The notes beneath the pieces are model-generated. The model was not told where the DNA came from and searched no databases. It saw only the letters and a program-made list of their open reading frames with translations. The position numbers were made by a program, and so were the translations under genes. Below are positions 11,797-21,578 of a stretch of DNA of 64,000 bases, in pieces. Source of the stretch: a virus; IMG/VR virus record IMGVR_UViG_3300020477_001012, positions 32,001 through 96,000 of that record. The stretch is one strand, 5' to 3'. Within the stretch, counting starts at the first letter, position 1; the number at the start of each line of letters is the position of its first letter.

Positions 11797-11842
11797 AGTT
11801 GAGTTACGGTTCTCATGCGAGGTGGAAGGACGAGCAAAACCG
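11784..11842 (+). ncRNA. Pseudoknot RNA family unit 3
   Basis: cttccacc/ggtggaag, tgag/ctca, cggtt/aaccg; ends 5 nt before tRNA-Ile. Confidence 0.85.
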
Positions 11843-11847
11843 AGCAT

Positions 11848-11920
11848 GGGGTTGTAGCTCAGTGGTTAGAGCGCCGTTCTTATAAAGCGGTAGTCGCGGG
11901 TTCGATTCCCGCCAACCCTA
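11848..11920 (+). tRNA. tRNA-Ile(UAU), no encoded CCA
   Basis: Cloverleaf; acceptor GGGGTTG/CAACCCT; anticodon arm ccgtt-CT TAT AA-agcgg; GGTTCGATTCC T-arm. Confidence 0.9.
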
Positions 11921-11922
11921 CT

Positions 11923-11988
11923 CTGTCGCCGGTAAAGTTGAGTTTTATTCGGTTCTCAAGCGAGGTCACAGTCGTTCCAAAACCGAAT
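11923..11988 (+). ncRNA. Pseudoknot RNA family unit 4
   Basis: Starts 2 nt after the tRNA; ctgtcgcc/ggtcacag (imperfect), tgag/ctca, attcggtt/aaccgaat. Confidence 0.8.
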
Positions 11989-12010
11989 CTTTTAATTTTC
12001 ATTTTATTTA

Positions 12011-12069
12011 CTACGCCAATAAAGGTGAGCTGGCGCCTCAACCGTAGGCGTCAGAATAGACAAGCGCCA
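12011..12069 (+). ncRNA. Pseudoknot RNA family unit 5 (followed by U7)
   Basis: acgcc/ggcgt, tgag/ctca, tggcgc/gcgcca. Confidence 0.8.
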
Positions 12070-12086
12070 TTTTTTTAAAGGGATTT

Positions 12087-13355
12087 ATGATGAGGATAAA
12101 GGTTAAGCGTAATGCGAAGTTAATCGGATTAGATACACGAGAGATTGATGAAGACCACAAAAGGACGATCCAGTTGTGTAGACGTGTCTCAAAGTATATT
12201 AGAAAAGAAATAGTGGATGGGAATATTGTTGAGATCAATAAGCGGGTTATCTACAAAGATGGAACATCCTTAGACAATACCGCATTTAAAAACAAAGTCA
12301 GTCACCTGTTTGACGACGATGCTCATGCAGAGTCTCTTAGGAGAAATTCTGTAATCTATGTCATGGAGAGATATGCCGGATATATCAGTCGGAACGGACT
12401 GGATAGATTTCTAAAAATCAAATCACCCATCTCTATCAAGGATACCTCTTTTTATTTTAAAGACAACTTCAATAAGATAGATAAAGAGAATAAAATCCTG
12501 TACGTAAAAACAATGTTCACGGGGGACAGGGAATACAGGAAGGTTCCTTATAAGTATGTGCTTAAAGGAGATAAAATTTCAGAGGATAAGAAACATGGTG
12601 GCAATTTAACTTTTCCTCGCAAAAAGAACAAGGCAAAAACATATGTGATCGCTGTTGACTACGAGAGGGAACCTGCATACGAACCTGAAAAATTGATTGG
12701 GTTTGATCTTAATAAAGATAAGAAATCTTGGATAGTTCTTGACGATGGGCAAAGAATCACTCCAAATCAACAAATACAAGACTCCACAGAGAACATCCGT
12801 GTTTTAAATACAACTCTGGACAAGGATAAGAAGGCTCCTATTGATAAGAGAAGCCTTAGAAGCAAGGATAGGAGACCTATTAGGTTGAAGTGGAAGAAAG
12901 CTCATAGTAAACTAAAAGCTGAGATAAGCAAGGTGGCTGAGACTGTCGTGAATAAGGCTAGAGATGAGAAAGCACTGCTGTGTATTGACAGTGTTACAAC
13001 TGGGCAGAAAAATGGCACATTTGGTCAAGATCATTTAATCGAGACGCTTCAAGTAATGTGTGAGAACCAAGGTGTTCCATTCTATGTCGTACCATGCAAA
13101 AATACATCTCGTAGATGTTCATCTTGCGGGTATATCGCTAAGGGTAACAGGGTAAACACAGACGAATTCCATTGTGAAGATTGTGGTCATAAGTGTGACG
13201 CACAAAATAATGGTGCAAAAAATATTGTCTTTCAAGGTCAGAGAATGTATAATGCGGGTGTCCCCTATGGGAATTATAGAAGACGCGCAGTAGACACTCT
13301 GGTAAAAGAATACTCTCAACAAGAAAGTTCAGTTGATACCTCTGAGGCGAGTTGA
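12087..13355 (+). CDS. TnpB/Cas12f-like RuvC + Zn-ribbon protein with a degenerate active site (putative nuclease-dead)
   Basis: RuvC-I LIGFDLN; RuvC-II LLCIDSV (E>D); TSRRCSSCG...FHCEDCG; RuvC-III DAQNNGAKNI (D>Q versus DRDxNAAxNI); no tnpA nearby. Confidence 0.85.
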   Translation: MMRIKVKRNAKLIGLDTREIDEDHKRTIQLCRRVSKYIRKEIVDGNIVEINKRVIYKDGTSLDNTAFKNKVSHLFDDDAHAESLRRNSVIYVMERYAGYISRNGLDRFLKIKSPISIKDTSFYFKDNFNKIDKENKILYVKTMFTGDREYRKVPYKYVLKGDKISEDKKHGGNLTFPRKKNKAKTYVIAVDYEREPAYEPEKLIGFDLNKDKKSWIVLDDGQRITPNQQIQDSTENIRVLNTTLDKDKKAPIDKRSLRSKDRRPIRLKWKKAHSKLKAEISKVAETVVNKARDEKALLCIDSVTTGQKNGTFGQDHLIETLQVMCENQGVPFYVVPCKNTSRRCSSCGYIAKGNRVNTDEFHCEDCGHKCDAQNNGAKNIVFQGQRMYNAGVPYGNYRRRAVDTLVKEYSQQESSVDTSEAS

Positions 13356-13373
13356 GAGAGTACACAAAGGTAT
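13313..13373 (+). ncRNA. Pseudoknot RNA family unit 6 (overlaps the TnpB-like stop codon)
   Basis: ctctcaac/gttgagag, AGAAAGT, tcag/ctga, atacct/aggtat. Confidence 0.85.
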
Positions 13374-13374
13374 A

Positions 13375-13436
13375 CTGCCACTAATTAAGCTGAGTTACAG
13401 GGTTCTTACGCGAGGTGGCAGAAAGGCCAAAACCCT
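13375..13436 (+). ncRNA. Pseudoknot RNA family unit 7
   Basis: ctgccact/ggtggcag, tgag/ctta, agggtt/aaccct; ends 4 nt before tRNA-Leu. Confidence 0.85.
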
Positions 13437-13440
13437 AAAT

Positions 13441-13525
13441 GCCGGAGTGGTGGAATAGGCAGACACAACGGACTTAAAATCCGTTGCTCATAATGGGCGT
13501 GTGGGTTCGAGTCCCACCTTCGGTA
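13441..13525 (+). tRNA. tRNA-Leu(UAA)
   Basis: acgga-CT TAA AA-tccgt; long variable arm; GGTTCGAGTCC. Confidence 0.92.
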
Positions 13526-13527
13526 CT

Positions 13528-19912: not shown

Positions 19913-20038
19913 TGAATATCATAGAACCATTTCCGCCCATGATCGACGCTTGTGATTGGTGCGGAGTCTTCAAATGTGTATCATATGTTGATGAACATTA
20001 CATTTGTTACGATTGTACAAGTAGCTTAGAGGATAACA

Positions 20039-20455
20039 ATGAAACTCTATGCAATAATTTGGATAACTAAGTTTGGCAAACTTTATGCTATGGAGCCAGT
20101 AGCGATCTACAAGGATATGGAAACCGCCCTAGAGTACGTGCTGAAACTAGAGCAAGCATGGAATAAGCTAGGAAACGATAAATACGAAGAAGCAACATTT
20201 GATATTATTGACTTTCAAATGGACGAGGAACCTTATCTCTTGACTTACTTTACCAAGATGGAAGAAAAAATTAATGACACCAGAGACCACCACCTATCCA
20301 AACTAATGAAAGACGGAATGGTGGAGCAGCTCGTAGGAGATGATGGTTATTTTTATTACGAACTAACAGAGAAGGGCGAGAAATTAGCAAAGAAGAAAGC
20401 GTTATTTCCGCAGCATGTCAAAGATTGGAAAAGATTCTTTGGCAAGGGTAAATAA
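20039..20455 (+). CDS. Hypothetical protein with a winged-helix-like C-terminus
   Basis: YYELTEKG. Confidence 0.55.
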   Translation: MKLYAIIWITKFGKLYAMEPVAIYKDMETALEYVLKLEQAWNKLGNDKYEEATFDIIDFQMDEEPYLLTYFTKMEEKINDTRDHHLSKLMKDGMVEQLVGDDGYFYYELTEKGEKLAKKKALFPQHVKDWKRFFGKGK

Positions 20456-20460
20456 TACTT

Positions 20461-20532
20461 GGCCCTGTAGTTAAACGGATATAACAAGGGTCTTCTAAAC
20501 CCTAATTCGGGGTTCGATTCCTCGCGGGGCTA
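20461..20532 (+). tRNA. tRNA-Arg(UCU)
   Basis: agggt-CT TCT AA-accct; GGTTCGATTCC; acceptor ggccctg/cggggct. Confidence 0.9.
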
Positions 20533-20535
20533 CTA

Positions 20536-20736
20536 ATGGTAGATAAAGTCAAATGTCCTTGTGGCAAAGAAATCTCGTACAAGGATAGTTATAGATGTAG
20601 AATATGTTTTACTCATTATTGCTCCGAGTGTTCGTTAGATCATTTCGGTCTGTATGAAAAAAATGGACACGTCCAATATAAGAATATTTTTAAAACTATG
20701 TACTGGCTTTTTAGAAAAAGGATTTTTGGAAGATGA
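20536..20736 (+). CDS. Small Zn-finger protein
   Basis: CPCG...CRIC...CSEC..H. Confidence 0.6.
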   Translation: MVDKVKCPCGKEISYKDSYRCRICFTHYCSECSLDHFGLYEKNGHVQYKNIFKTMYWLFRKRIFGR

Positions 20737-21203
20737 GAATAGGAATTGTATCTGGTTATTTTAACCCATTACACACAGGACACCTAGACTACATCGAGGA
20801 AGCTAAGGCACATTGTGAATATTTATATGTTATTGTAAACAGTGACCTCCAAGTCAAACTGAAGCAGAGCAGGGAGTTCTTAGATGAGGCGTCTCGCGTT
20901 AGAATTATTGACGCATTACGCGATGTCTACAAGGCTGTCCTATCCGTAGACAAAGATGGGACGGTTGTTAAAACGATTAAGAGTATCTACGAAGAGAATT
21001 ACAACGACCCATTTGTTTCCGGTTTCTGTTTTATGAATGGAGGAGACAGAAAGGCTGGCAATACGCCGGAGTCAGATTTTTGCGAGAAGAACCAAATCAG
21101 ACTAATATATAATGTAGGGGGAGTTAAGACACAGTCGTCAAGTTCCCTTTTAGAGAAGACGAGGATTAATGAGGGGATTAATTGGATAGCGCCTGCGAGT
21201 TAG
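20733..21203 (+). CDS. Cytidylyltransferase (HxGH nucleotidyltransferase)
   Basis: SGYFNPLHTGH, NGGDR, KTQSSS. Confidence 0.88.
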   Translation: MRIGIVSGYFNPLHTGHLDYIEEAKAHCEYLYVIVNSDLQVKLKQSREFLDEASRVRIIDALRDVYKAVLSVDKDGTVVKTIKSIYEENYNDPFVSGFCFMNGGDRKAGNTPESDFCEKNQIRLIYNVGGVKTQSSSSLLEKTRINEGINWIAPAS

Positions 21204-21284
21204 ACATGGCAGTTTGTCTGCCTAAACATGTAGATGTTGTTGTGGATACATCACTGGACGGGGGTTCGATTCCCCCCACCTCCA
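21185..21284 (+). ncRNA. ssrA: Permuted tmRNA, acceptor piece (5' end approximate)
   Basis: Ends ggacgggGGTTCGATTCCcccCACCTCCA; acatgtag and gttgtt pair with ctgcatgt and gacaac of the coding piece. Confidence 0.85.
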
Positions 21285-21286
21285 CT

Positions 21287-21344
21287 CTGTGTCAAGAAAG
21301 TTGGGTCAGGGTTCCCAGACGAGAACACAGGCGTCTCAAAACCC
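21287..21344 (+). ncRNA. Pseudoknot RNA family unit 8 (inside the tmRNA intervening segment)
   Basis: ctgtgt/acacag, tggg/ccca, gggtt/aaccc. Confidence 0.85.
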
Positions 21345-21348
21345 ATTA

Positions 21349-21407
21349 CTTCGCCCGATAAAGTTGGGTCAGGGTTCCCAAACGAGGGTGATGCCGTGAC
21401 AAAACCC
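21349..21407 (+). ncRNA. Pseudoknot RNA family unit 9 (inside the tmRNA intervening segment)
   Basis: tcgccc/gggtga, tggg/ccca, gggtt/aaccc. Confidence 0.85.
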
Positions 21408-21411
21408 AAAT

Positions 21412-21578
21412 GGGGGTGAACGGATTCGACAGGTTGTAAGAAGTGACAACTGCATGTGGTAGTTGGTCTATGGCTACCTAAAAATAGACCGAACAATAAG
21501 TGCAAAACCTAGTTTTGCTTTAGCCGCTTAATCGCGTCTACGGGGGGTTGCCCGCCCTTGTTACCCAAACGGGCTTTT
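21412..21578 (+). ncRNA. ssrA: Permuted tmRNA, coding piece; tag (A)AKPSFALAA*
   Basis: 5' GGGGGTGaacggattcgac pairs with CACCTCC giving G3:U70; tag reading frame 21502-21531. Confidence 0.9.

What the first reader, a model, noticed from the sequence alone, without database searches (positions are those of the whole stretch)
11842..21412. RNA units are punctuated by tRNA/tmRNA processing sites (a natural tRNA-gRNA polycistron)
Seen in sequence: units 3, 7 and 9 end 4-5 nt before the mature 5' G of tRNA-Ile, tRNA-Leu and the tmRNA coding piece. Units 4 and 8 begin exactly 2 nt ('ct') after the discriminator A of tRNA-Ile and of the tmRNA acceptor piece. Unit 1 starts at a promoter +1, and units 2 and 5 end in U-tracts. 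Established knowledge: RNase P cuts at tRNA 5' ends, and RNase Z-type enzymes cut CCA-less tRNA 3' ends (all these tRNAs lack an encoded CCA). Inference: host tRNA maturation releases the small RNAs with defined ends, replacing a Cas6 or RNase III step. Alternatively, the units are ribozymes that help mature the tRNAs, analogous to phage theta ribozymes.
Basis: partly seen in the sequence, partly recalled or inferred. Interest (0 to 1): 0.85.

Follow-up and report, generated by a model that had tools for sequence, protein, structure and literature searches.

The report
Knotted phage RNAs packed among tRNAs
An uncultured 174-kb marine phage places nine copies of an undescribed 60-base knotted RNA, the companion of a disabled TnpB-type protein, flush against its tRNA and tmRNA genes, so tRNA-cutting enzymes must trim some of their ends, but relatives show that these RNAs do not need tRNAs to be released.

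Summary
Units 3, 7 and 9 end 5, 4 and 4 nt before the +1 G of tRNA-Ile, tRNA-Leu and the tmRNA coding piece. Units 4 and 8 start 2 nt after a discriminator A. Unit 1 starts 7-8 nt after a perfect -10 box, and units 2 and 5 are followed by T7 runs.

The units are a real RNA family with three covarying helices, one of them a pseudoknot, and no Rfam match. All nine copies in the genome lie in this window.

- tRNA processing can set just 5 of the 18 unit ends here.
- Ten ends sit at unit-unit junctions (0-5 nt in tandem arrays generally; one 23-nt gap here) or inside ORFs.
- The closest relative (L117) and distant clades (L046, L106) carry unit arrays with no tRNA nearby.
- A relative's permuted tmRNA has only a 17-nt spacer and no units.
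- The 'CT' follows every tRNA of this phage, so it is a tRNA trailer, not a unit feature.

The primary link is to a RuvC-degenerate TnpB-like gene. Units bracket it in about 25 of 28 viral loci, and one usually overlaps its stop codon, as an omegaRNA would. No 3' guide exists, but a 6-nt loop is hypervariable.

How the units are released is still open: the protein, self-cleavage or RNase P. Other first-reader notes in this scan flagged the same system on this same genome; none on other DNA.

The parts
3908..3935 (+). Consensus sigma-70-type promoter (TTGACA-16-TATAAT). The likely +1 is A3942, one base before U1.
   Evidence: 12 of 12 matches. The same TATAAT-6 nt-A-CU layout precedes units in L012 and L044.
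3943..4004 (+). Unit 1 (pseudoknot RNA)
   Evidence: 54.8 bits
4010..4072 (+). Unit 2, followed by a T7 run at 4073-4079
   Evidence: 60.3 bits
11576..11603 (+). Promoter-like site (TTGACT-16-TATAAT) upstream of the U3-tRNA-Ile-U4-U5 block
   Evidence: 11 of 12 matches; function inferred
11784..11842 (+). Unit 3. It ends 5 nt (AGCAT) before tRNA-Ile +1 and overlaps the stop codon of the 61-aa ORF 11611-11796.
   Evidence: 69.1 bits
11848..11920 (+). tRNA-Ile(tat), no encoded CCA, trailer CT
11923..11987 (+). Unit 4. It starts 2 nt after the discriminator.
   Evidence: 60.5 bits
12011..12068 (+). Unit 5 (has CGUAG in place of CGAG and a GGCGC:GCGCC pseudoknot). It is followed by a T7 run and then the ribosome-binding site of the TnpB-like gene.
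   Evidence: 42.5 bits
12087..13355 (+). 422-aa TnpB/Cas12f-fold protein with a degenerate RuvC site (D207, D301 in place of Glu, Gln in place of the third Asp)
13313..13373 (+). Unit 6. It overlaps the last 43 nt of the TnpB-like ORF, the position an omegaRNA takes.
   Evidence: 57.1 bits. The same overlap is seen in relatives.
13375..13436 (+). Unit 7. It lies 1 nt after U6 and ends 4 nt (AAAT) before tRNA-Leu +1.
   Evidence: 62 bits
13441..13525 (+). tRNA-Leu(taa), no CCA, trailer CT
20461..20532 (+). tRNA-Arg(tct), no CCA, trailer CT, no unit on either side (a control)
21226..21284 (+). tmRNA acceptor (3') piece; discriminator A21284, trailer CT
21287..21344 (+). Unit 8, the first half of the tmRNA intervening segment
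   Evidence: 60 bits
21349..21407 (+). Unit 9, the second half of the intervening segment. It ends 4 nt before the tmRNA 5' G.
   Evidence: 65.3 bits
21412..21622 (+). tmRNA coding piece (tag AKPSFALAA). Its 5' GGGGGUG pairs with CACCUCC of the acceptor piece, giving G3:U70.
   Evidence: the pairing is read from the sequence

Best explanation
The nine units are stable small RNAs of an undescribed family, each about 60 nt long.

Architecture, 5' to 3':
- C1-U2 opens the 8-bp helix Pa.
- AAY-AAAG follows.
- The 4-bp helix Pb comes next; its loop carries Pk5'.
- Then NN-YGAG, the 3' strand of Pa, and a hypervariable 6-nt loop.
- CAA and Pk3' close an H-type pseudoknot.

They are the cognate, omegaRNA-derived but guide-less RNA of a phage-specific, RuvC-degenerate TnpB-like protein. 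In this phage lineage the module sits inside the tRNA/tmRNA operons.

How the outer ends of each RNA block are set:
- by a promoter +1 or a U-run, or
- where a unit abuts a tRNA or tmRNA piece, by host RNase P (leaving a 4-5 nt tail that ends in U) and by host tRNA 3' maturation (the cut at or after the discriminator).

That tRNA-dependent trimming is opportunistic. The many unit-unit junctions need a second, tRNA-independent activity acting just 5' of the conserved C1-U2. The most likely agent is the TnpB-like protein itself, since relatives of this protein family process their own RNAs. Self-cleavage or RNase P are the other candidates.

Shown: the fold, the copy number, the geometry, and the link to the protein.
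Inferred: every cleavage event and the binding of RNA to protein.
For: Fold:
- On 72 units from 18 loci, 94% of cells are paired, against at most 47% when the partners are slid.
- 338 cells carry changes on both sides.
- The pseudoknot helix, which was not in the search model, is 90.8% paired (27 units).
- G:U pairs outnumber A:C 62 to 28, which favours folding of the transcribed strand.
- No Rfam family matches.

RNA-level ends:
- In three phages a TATAAT box is followed by 6 nt, an A, and then C1-U2.
- Terminal units are followed by U-runs.

Link to the protein:
- Units flank the TnpB-like gene, always on its strand. All 72 hits and all 26 are on the + strand.
- About 25 of 28 IMG/VR loci have them, usually one unit 100-190 nt upstream and one overlapping the stop codon. 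For roughly half of these loci the units are weak hits (E about 0.004-0.4), accepted because they recur at the same two positions on the gene's strand.
- Clades only 27-37% identical to the window protein have them too (L046, L106, L108).
- The protein has the TnpB/Cas12f fold (pLDDT 88.5; all top Foldseek hits are Cas12f, TnpB, TranC or Fanzor) with RuvC residues D, D and Q/H.

tRNA packing:
- Discriminator to unit spacers: 2 nt (six cases), 4 nt, 5 nt.
- Unit to tRNA +1 spacers: 4-5 nt (eight cases), 8 nt (two cases).
- Six isoacceptor types or the tmRNA are involved, and the leaders checked end in U at -1.

tRNA independence:
- L117 (71% identical protein) has 6 units and no tRNA. L046 and L106 likewise.
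- Tandem spacers are 0-5 nt.
- The tmRNA of relative G001 has a 17-nt spacer without units.
- The phage encodes no CCA-adding enzyme and no RNase Z-like protein, so host enzymes act.
Against: - No RNA data exist for this phage, so no RNA end, no RNA stability and no RNA-protein contact has been seen.
- No guide was found, so what the protein would do with such an RNA is unknown.
- The degenerate RuvC site may be unable to process RNA.
- Fragment G005 (97 kb, 61% complete) holds five dispersed units and no TnpB-like gene in the part held, so the units may work without the protein.
- Bracketing of a TnpB-type gene by similar structured elements is also what IS200/IS605 left and right ends look like.
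Confidence: 0.55

Rival explanations
1. One reading: host RNase P and RNase Z are the release mechanism for guide RNAs, a natural tRNA-gRNA polycistron that replaces a Cas6 or RNase III step.
For: Five junctions in the window and at least 15 in relatives have fixed 2-nt or 4-5-nt spacers. L085 has the order tRNA-Met, unit, tRNA-Arg, unit. The leaders checked end in U(-1), which bacterial RNase P prefers (my knowledge). The tRNAs lack an encoded CCA.
Against: Only 5 of 18 ends in the window can be set this way. Unit-unit junctions of 0-5 nt dominate. Arrays of 5-8 units hold no tRNA (L089, L117). Distant clades have no tRNA at all. No guide segment exists: the variable 14 nt are the 3' strand of Pa plus a 6-nt loop.
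Confidence: 0.15
2. Each unit is a self-cleaving ribozyme of a new class that cuts at its own 5' edge (N|CU). This would separate tandem units and, behind a tRNA, remove the trailer, in the manner of theta (HDV-like) ribozymes.
For: - About 17 conserved unpaired bases sit in a 60-nt pseudoknot.
- The terminal pairs C1:G and U2:A are conserved next to the presumed cut. CU starts 74 of 81 units, and G is avoided at -1, occurring in 2 of 81.
- A 7-8-bp first helix starts the RNA, and C-A-A-(A) precedes the 3' pseudoknot strand, as J4/2 does in HDV-like ribozymes.
- Theta ribozymes sit at phage tRNA 3' ends (PMC10879173).
Against: - No HDV, hatchet, pistol, twister or hammerhead model matches even at E up to 10 or 5.
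- The topology differs: Pk5' lies inside the Pb loop, and there is no P3 hairpin or L3.
- Units start 2-5 nt after the tRNA end, not within 1 nt.
- U1, L012a and L044-3667 start at a promoter +1, where there is nothing to cleave.
- The units are not needed for tRNA or tmRNA maturation in relatives.
- The strict link to one protein gene is not expected of a free-standing ribozyme.
Confidence: 0.13
3. The units mimic a tRNA acceptor end: helix Pa with a single-stranded 3' extension. RNase P would then cut 5' of C1 in every unit, so that the whole block is matured like a tRNA array.
For: Units are packed in the operons with the same 0-5-nt spacing as tRNA-tRNA junctions, which are 3-4 nt. The geometry at C1 (a paired +1 with an unpaired 3' strand after G52) matches an RNase P site. 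Non-tRNA substrates of RNase P are known (my knowledge).
Against: No T-arm-like element and no RCCA is present. +1 is C and -1 is mostly A, where RNase P prefers G and U. ARAGORN and the tRNA covariance model see nothing tRNA-like in the units. Untested.
Confidence: 0.09
4. The units act at the DNA level, as remnants or miniature copies of IS200/IS605-type transposon ends around a TnpB gene, and any RNA is incidental.
For: A TnpB-type gene is bracketed by similar structured elements in one orientation. Copies are dispersed in the genome.
Against: No TnpA was seen in the flanks examined, and the protein family is absent from 185,579 prokaryote genomes. A three-helix pseudoknot with conserved single strands is present. 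The G:U over A:C bias is 62 to 28. Promoter +1 and U-run placement fit an RNA. The gene is syntenic in phage lineages next to rIIB, not mobile-looking.
Confidence: 0.04

Closest known systems
Engineered polycistronic tRNA-gRNA genes and natural tRNA-linked small RNAs (T4 tRNA-cluster species 1 and 2 RNAs, plant tRNA-snoRNA genes, MHV68 tRNA-miRNA)
   Same: Small non-tRNA RNAs are co-transcribed with tRNAs and separated from them by only a few bases, so RNase P and RNase Z cuts define the shared ends. In L085 a unit is flanked by tRNAs on both sides.
   Different: Most units here have no tRNA neighbour. tRNA-free arrays exist in the closest relative. The RNA shows no guide. The examples are recalled from my own knowledge; only the engineered system was seen in papers here.
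TnpB omegaRNA and the TldR (TnpB-like nuclease-dead repressor) guide RNA
   Same: The protein has the TnpB/Cas12f fold with a disabled RuvC site, as in TldR. One RNA copy overlaps the 3' end of the ORF. The scaffold has a pseudoknot and A-rich strands; the TldR gRNA has a triplex, stems and a pseudoknot (PMC13622181).
   Different: The unit is about 60 nt against a 97-nt or longer scaffold. There are up to 14 copies per locus, also upstream of the gene and dispersed. No 3' guide exists (0-5-nt spacers). The only free variable part is a 6-nt internal loop. The protein shares only the TNB domain by sequence.
Theta ribozymes (minimal HDV-like ribozymes next to phage tRNAs; Kienbeck et al. 2024, PMC10879173)
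   Same: Both are small pseudoknotted RNAs directly downstream of CCA-less phage tRNAs. Both have a first helix of 7-8 bp and a C-A-A motif before the closing strand.
   Different: No Rfam HDV-type hit. The strand order differs and there is no P3/L3/P1.1. The offset is 2-5 nt, not within 1 nt. Units also lie upstream of tRNAs, in tandem, at promoters and around one protein gene.
Type III antitoxin RNAs (ToxI, CptI, TenpI)
   Same: Tandem short pseudoknot repeats next to the gene of the protein thought to bind and cut them.
   Different: No ToxN-type endoribonuclease is present. The units are 60 nt and highly diverged from one another. They lie on both sides of the gene and inside tRNA and tmRNA operons. 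This is only a resemblance; it was not tested.

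Membership tests
tRNA-punctuated small-RNA polycistron (PTG-like) | The small RNA directly abuts tRNA ends, so that the RNase P and RNase Z sites coincide with its ends | tested here: met
   Five junctions in the window with 2-, 4- or 5-nt spacers. At least 15 more in relatives.
tRNA-punctuated small-RNA polycistron (PTG-like) | tRNAs separate every small RNA, so tRNA processing is sufficient for release | tested here: not met
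   U1-U2, U4-U5, U6-U7 and U8-U9, and arrays of up to 8 units, have no tRNA between them. L117, L046 and L106 have no tRNA.
tRNA-punctuated small-RNA polycistron (PTG-like) | Mature RNA ends map to the tRNA boundaries | not testable with these tools
   No RNA run is listed as holding the stretch.
HDV-like / theta ribozyme | Nested double pseudoknot in the order P1-P2-P3-L3-P3'-P1'-P1.1-P4-J4/2-P2' | tested here: not met
   The order found is Pa5'-Pb5'-Pk5'-Pb3'-Pa3'-loop-CAA-Pk3'. No HDV-type Rfam hit at E up to 10.
HDV-like / theta ribozyme | Self-cleavage at the 5' edge, within 1 nt of the tRNA 3' end | tested here: inconclusive
   The offset is 2-5 nt. Cleavage itself cannot be tested here.
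TnpB-omegaRNA / TldR-gRNA | Protein with the TnpB fold (WED-REC-RuvC-TNB) | tested here: met
   PF07282 at 1e-13. AlphaFold2 pLDDT 88.5 and Foldseek E values of 1e-11 to 1e-13 to Cas12f and TnpB over about 410-450 columns.
TnpB-omegaRNA / TldR-gRNA | Intact RuvC D-E-D triad (for nuclease members) | tested here: not met
   D207 is kept. Glu is replaced by an invariant D301. The third Asp is replaced by Gln or His in all 23 aligned members.
TnpB-omegaRNA / TldR-gRNA | The cognate RNA is encoded at, and overlaps, the 3' end of the gene | tested here: met
   U6 overlaps the ORF by 43 nt. The same is seen in L041, L042, L044, L084, L085, L089, L108, L117 and, as weaker hits, in L049, L091, L093, L097, L100, L101 and L104.
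TnpB-omegaRNA / TldR-gRNA | A guide segment 3' of the scaffold that matches a target | tested here: not met
   Only 0-5 nt follow a unit before the next unit, a tRNA or a U-run. The 16-nt 3' flanks and the variable segments have no second match in the phage genome. The host is unknown.
CRISPR array | Constant repeats alternating with unrelated spacers | tested here: not met
   The variable stretches are the two strands of covarying helices. Only 6 nt are free.

The most novel reading that the evidence does not exclude
The units are specificity modules of a nuclease-dead TnpB-like effector. Each is a constant pseudoknot scaffold presenting a 6-nt loop that evolves faster than synonymous sites, and the units are held in CRISPR-independent arrays. 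This phage lineage has moved the arrays into its tRNA and tmRNA operons, so that host tRNA enzymes share in their maturation. That would make it a natural, partial tRNA-guide polycistron for a new kind of RNA-directed system.
Probability: 0.22. Interest if true: 0.9.

Novelty: new variant of a known kind. Interest (0 to 1): 0.72.

Why it matters
If the ends are made as proposed, this is a natural case of a phage riding host tRNA maturation to shape the RNA partner of a TnpB-derived protein, a design that until now was only engineered.

More broadly, the work defines two things:
- an uncatalogued, strongly covarying RNA family;
- a virus-only clade of RuvC-degenerate TnpB-like proteins that always travel with it.

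The arrays, the 6-nt hypervariable loop and the missing 3' guide do not fit any described TnpB, TldR or Cas12 RNA. The system could therefore show a new way in which this protein family uses RNA, or a new self-processing RNA.

It also shows that a permuted tmRNA spacer can take in foreign RNA modules.

Tried and rejected
- RNA evidence: no RNA holder is listed for window 11650-21640, so read laying was not used and ends and expression are untested.
- Cultured relatives: megablast against 50,697 phage records found only tRNA-Arg matches. The rIIB-like neighbour is at most 34% identical to any cultured phage.
- Close-relative search with the single protein found nothing in IMG/VR. The profile search worked.
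- No relative of the protein was found in 185,579 prokaryote genomes.
- Rfam at permissive thresholds gave nothing for the units.
- Mapping onto the HDV-like fold was rejected. CYC:GAG as P3 fails, because CYC covaries with the upstream GRG instead.
- The CRISPR repeat-spacer reading was rejected, because the variable parts pair with each other.
- Guide search: variable 13-nt segments, 16-nt 3' flanks and Pa strands have no significant second match in the phage genome.
- psbA, a CCA-adding enzyme and RNase Z-type proteins are absent from the phage, so the host stays unknown.
- Minimum-free-energy folding without pseudoknots recovers Pa and Pb in 6 of 9 units, but the z-scores are weak, from -2.7 to +0.7. 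The case for the fold rests on covariation.
- Literature searches on TnpB with phage, tRNA, marine or tandem found no description of this system.
- The first loose DNA pattern scan gave mostly chance hits.

Full report
**What is there**

The window is part of a complete 173,842-bp IMG/VR virus record. ARAGORN and Rfam find four tRNA-type genes:
- tRNA-Ile(tat) at 11848-11920;
- tRNA-Leu(taa) at 13441-13525;
- tRNA-Arg(tct) at 20461-20532;
- a permuted (two-piece) tmRNA, family RF04321, 91 bits.

A repeat search and reading of the sequence showed a roughly 60-nt motif next to these genes and at 3943-4072. A covariance model built from the nine copies finds exactly nine in the window and in the whole genome. 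All are on the + strand at 42-69 bits, and the next hit scores 11 bits.

**The observation**

- U3 ends at 11842, five bases (AGCAT) before G11848.
- U7 ends at 13436 and U9 at 21407, each four bases (AAAT) before the +1 G of tRNA-Leu and of the tmRNA coding piece.
- U4 (C1 at 11923) and U8 (C1 at 21287) start two bases (CT) after discriminators A11920 and A21284.
- U1 follows a 12/12 consensus promoter, with an A seven bases after TATAAT and then C1.
- U2 and U5 are followed by T7 runs.
- None of the tRNAs has an encoded CCA.

One correction is needed. CT also follows the discriminator of tRNA-Leu, of tRNA-Arg (which has no unit behind it) and of the tmRNA of a related phage. It belongs to the tRNA trailer, and the units start directly behind it.

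**The fold**

The unit reads, 5' to 3':
- C1-U2 opening the 8-bp helix Pa, whose last pair uses the G of a conserved YGAG;
- AAY-AAAG;
- the 4-bp helix Pb, whose loop carries Pk5';
- NN-YGAG;
- the 3' strand of Pa;
- six variable bases;
- CAA;
- Pk3'.

Pk crosses Pa and Pb, so the RNA is a pseudoknot.

Evidence for the fold:
- On 27 units, 91.5% of cells pair, against 37-49% when the partners are slid.
- On 72 units from 18 loci, 94% pair, against at most 47% slid. There are 338 cells with changes on both sides.
- The pseudoknot helix was never part of the search model, and it is still 90.8% paired, with changes on both sides in five of its six pairs.
- G:U pairs outnumber A:C 62 to 28, as expected if the transcribed strand folds.
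- No Rfam family matches even at E up to 10.

**The RNA belongs to a protein gene, not to tRNAs**

ORF 12087-13355 carries only the Cas12f1-like TNB domain by sequence. Its model (pLDDT 88.5) nevertheless matches Cas12f, TnpB, TranC and Fanzor structures over its whole length.

In 23 aligned homologues the first RuvC Asp is kept, the Glu is an invariant Asp, and the third Asp is Gln or His. About 75 clusters of this protein exist, nearly all from marine metagenomes. None was found in 185,579 prokaryote genomes.

In every close relative the gene lies after rIIB and is flanked by units on its own strand:
- L041: unit, tRNA-Ile, four units, gene, two units, tRNA-Arg.
- L042: tRNA-Ile, tRNA-Arg, unit, gene, two units.
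- L044: tRNA-Ile, four units, gene, four units.

A profile search gave 28 further IMG/VR loci. With models R2 and R3, about 25 of them show units, usually one 100-190 nt upstream and one overlapping the stop codon. For roughly half of those loci the hits are weak (E about 0.004-0.4) and were accepted because they recur at the same two positions. Every hit is on the gene's strand, 72 of 72 and 26 of 26. Arrays reach eight units upstream and six downstream (L089).

Clades only 27-37% identical to the window protein (L046, L106, L108) also have units right after the gene. L046 and L106 have no tRNA nearby. The closest relative of the window protein (L117, 71% identity) has six units around the gene and no tRNA within 4 kb.

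**What this means for the tRNA punctuation**

The junctions are not chance. Spacers from discriminator to unit are 2 nt (six cases), 4 nt and 5 nt. Spacers from unit to tRNA +1 are 4-5 nt (eight cases) and 8 nt (two cases). They involve tRNA-Ile, Arg, Leu, Met, Asn and the tmRNA. The leaders I checked end in U.

Since RNase P cuts at +1, and CCA-less precursors are cut at or just after the discriminator (established knowledge), these five unit ends in the window must be made by host tRNA enzymes. The phage itself has no CCA-adding or RNase Z-type gene.

Yet only 5 of the 18 unit ends in the window are of this kind. One is at a promoter and two are at U-runs. Ten are at unit-unit junctions or inside ORFs. 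In tandem arrays generally the units are 0-5 nt apart; in this window the gaps are 5, 23, 1 and 4 nt. tRNA-tRNA junctions in the same operons are 3-4 nt, so the units are simply packed like further tRNAs.

The units are also not needed by the tRNAs. Relatives join tRNAs directly. The permuted tmRNA of G001 has a 17-nt spacer (CTCGATAAATTAAAAAA) where this phage has CT-U8-ATTA-U9-AAAT.

So tRNA processing trims these RNAs where they touch, but it cannot be the step that releases them. The ribozymes-for-tRNA alternative is unlikely as a primary role.

**What cuts between units**

This is open. Three features point to a defined processing site just 5' of C1:
- the conserved terminal pairs C1:G and U2:A;
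- CU as the first two bases in 74 of 81 units;
- avoidance of G at -1, seen in only 2 of 81.

The candidates are the TnpB-like protein (members of this protein family process their own RNAs, my knowledge), self-cleavage, or RNase P acting on an acceptor-like helix end. The fold shares with HDV-like ribozymes a first helix of 7-8 bp and C-A-A-(A) before the closing strand. But the strand order differs, and CYC covaries with the upstream GRG rather than forming P3. It is therefore not a theta ribozyme.

**Guide or not**

There is no room for a 3' guide. Neither the variable segments nor the 3' flanks match elsewhere in the phage genome.

The 6-nt loop is striking, however.
- Among unit pairs with 92% scaffold identity it is only 36% identical, while the linker is 79% identical.
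- Between L044 and L089, four-fold synonymous sites of the neighbouring gene are 67% identical, but the loops of seven reciprocal-best unit pairs are 16/42 identical (P about 1e-4).
- This is a lead towards a specificity element. Orthology of units within arrays is an assumption.

**Novelty**

I found no paper on this protein clade or this RNA. Other first-reader notes on this same genome made the same basic points; I re-derived them here.

As a case of small RNAs sharing tRNA operons, it is a new variant of a known kind. The protein-RNA system behind it may be more than that.

Noticed in passing
A4 columns 96-101; for example window 11830-11835, 13423-13428, 21331-21336: The 6-nt loop between the 3' strand of Pa and CAA is hypervariable. 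It is 36% identical among units whose scaffolds are 92% identical. Between L044 and L089 it is 16/42 identical, against 67% at four-fold synonymous sites of the adjacent gene (P about 1e-4).
   Followed up: partly
window 11921-11922, 13526-13527, 20533-20534, 21285-21286; L112 (relative's tmRNA); L003 2165-2166: Every tRNA and tmRNA acceptor end in this phage and its relatives is followed by C-U, whatever comes next. This may be a conserved 3'-trailer signal.
   Followed up: partly
L112 (G001:C1:60474-60674, minus strand): A related phage has a compact permuted tmRNA (105 bits) with only a 17-nt intervening segment. The two units in this window's tmRNA spacer are therefore a lineage-specific insertion.
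   Followed up: yes
window 3475-4145: A 670-nt gene-poor stretch holds two perfect 12/12 sigma-70-type promoters, at 3752-3780 (with an extended TG) and at 3908-3935. The first may drive a roughly 100-nt RNA that ends in the T7 run near 3881-3887, or the 41-aa ORF 3809-3934. Its fold is not remarkable (z = -0.5).
   Followed up: partly
L053 2231-3623 (G005): Two units flank a DUF1559/prepilin-type gene (typical of Planctomycetes) right after a RecA/UvsX-like gene. This 97-kb fragment holds five dispersed units and no TnpB-like gene in the part held. It may hint at the host and at units working away from the gene.
   Followed up: partly
window 11611-11796: A 61-aa ORF with no Pfam match ends with its stop codon inside U3 (GAUAAAG), mirroring the way U6 overlaps the end of the TnpB-like ORF.
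   Followed up: no
window 11882-11926 and 21246-21290: The 3' half of tRNA-Ile plus the start of U4 is 76% identical to the tmRNA acceptor piece plus the start of U8, and both continue ACTCTGT. The tRNA-unit junction may have been copied as a block.
   Followed up: no
window 11988-12010: U4 and U5 are separated by an unusual 23-nt AT-rich spacer (TCTTTTAATTTTCATTTTATTTA), where tandem units usually have 0-5 nt.
   Followed up: no
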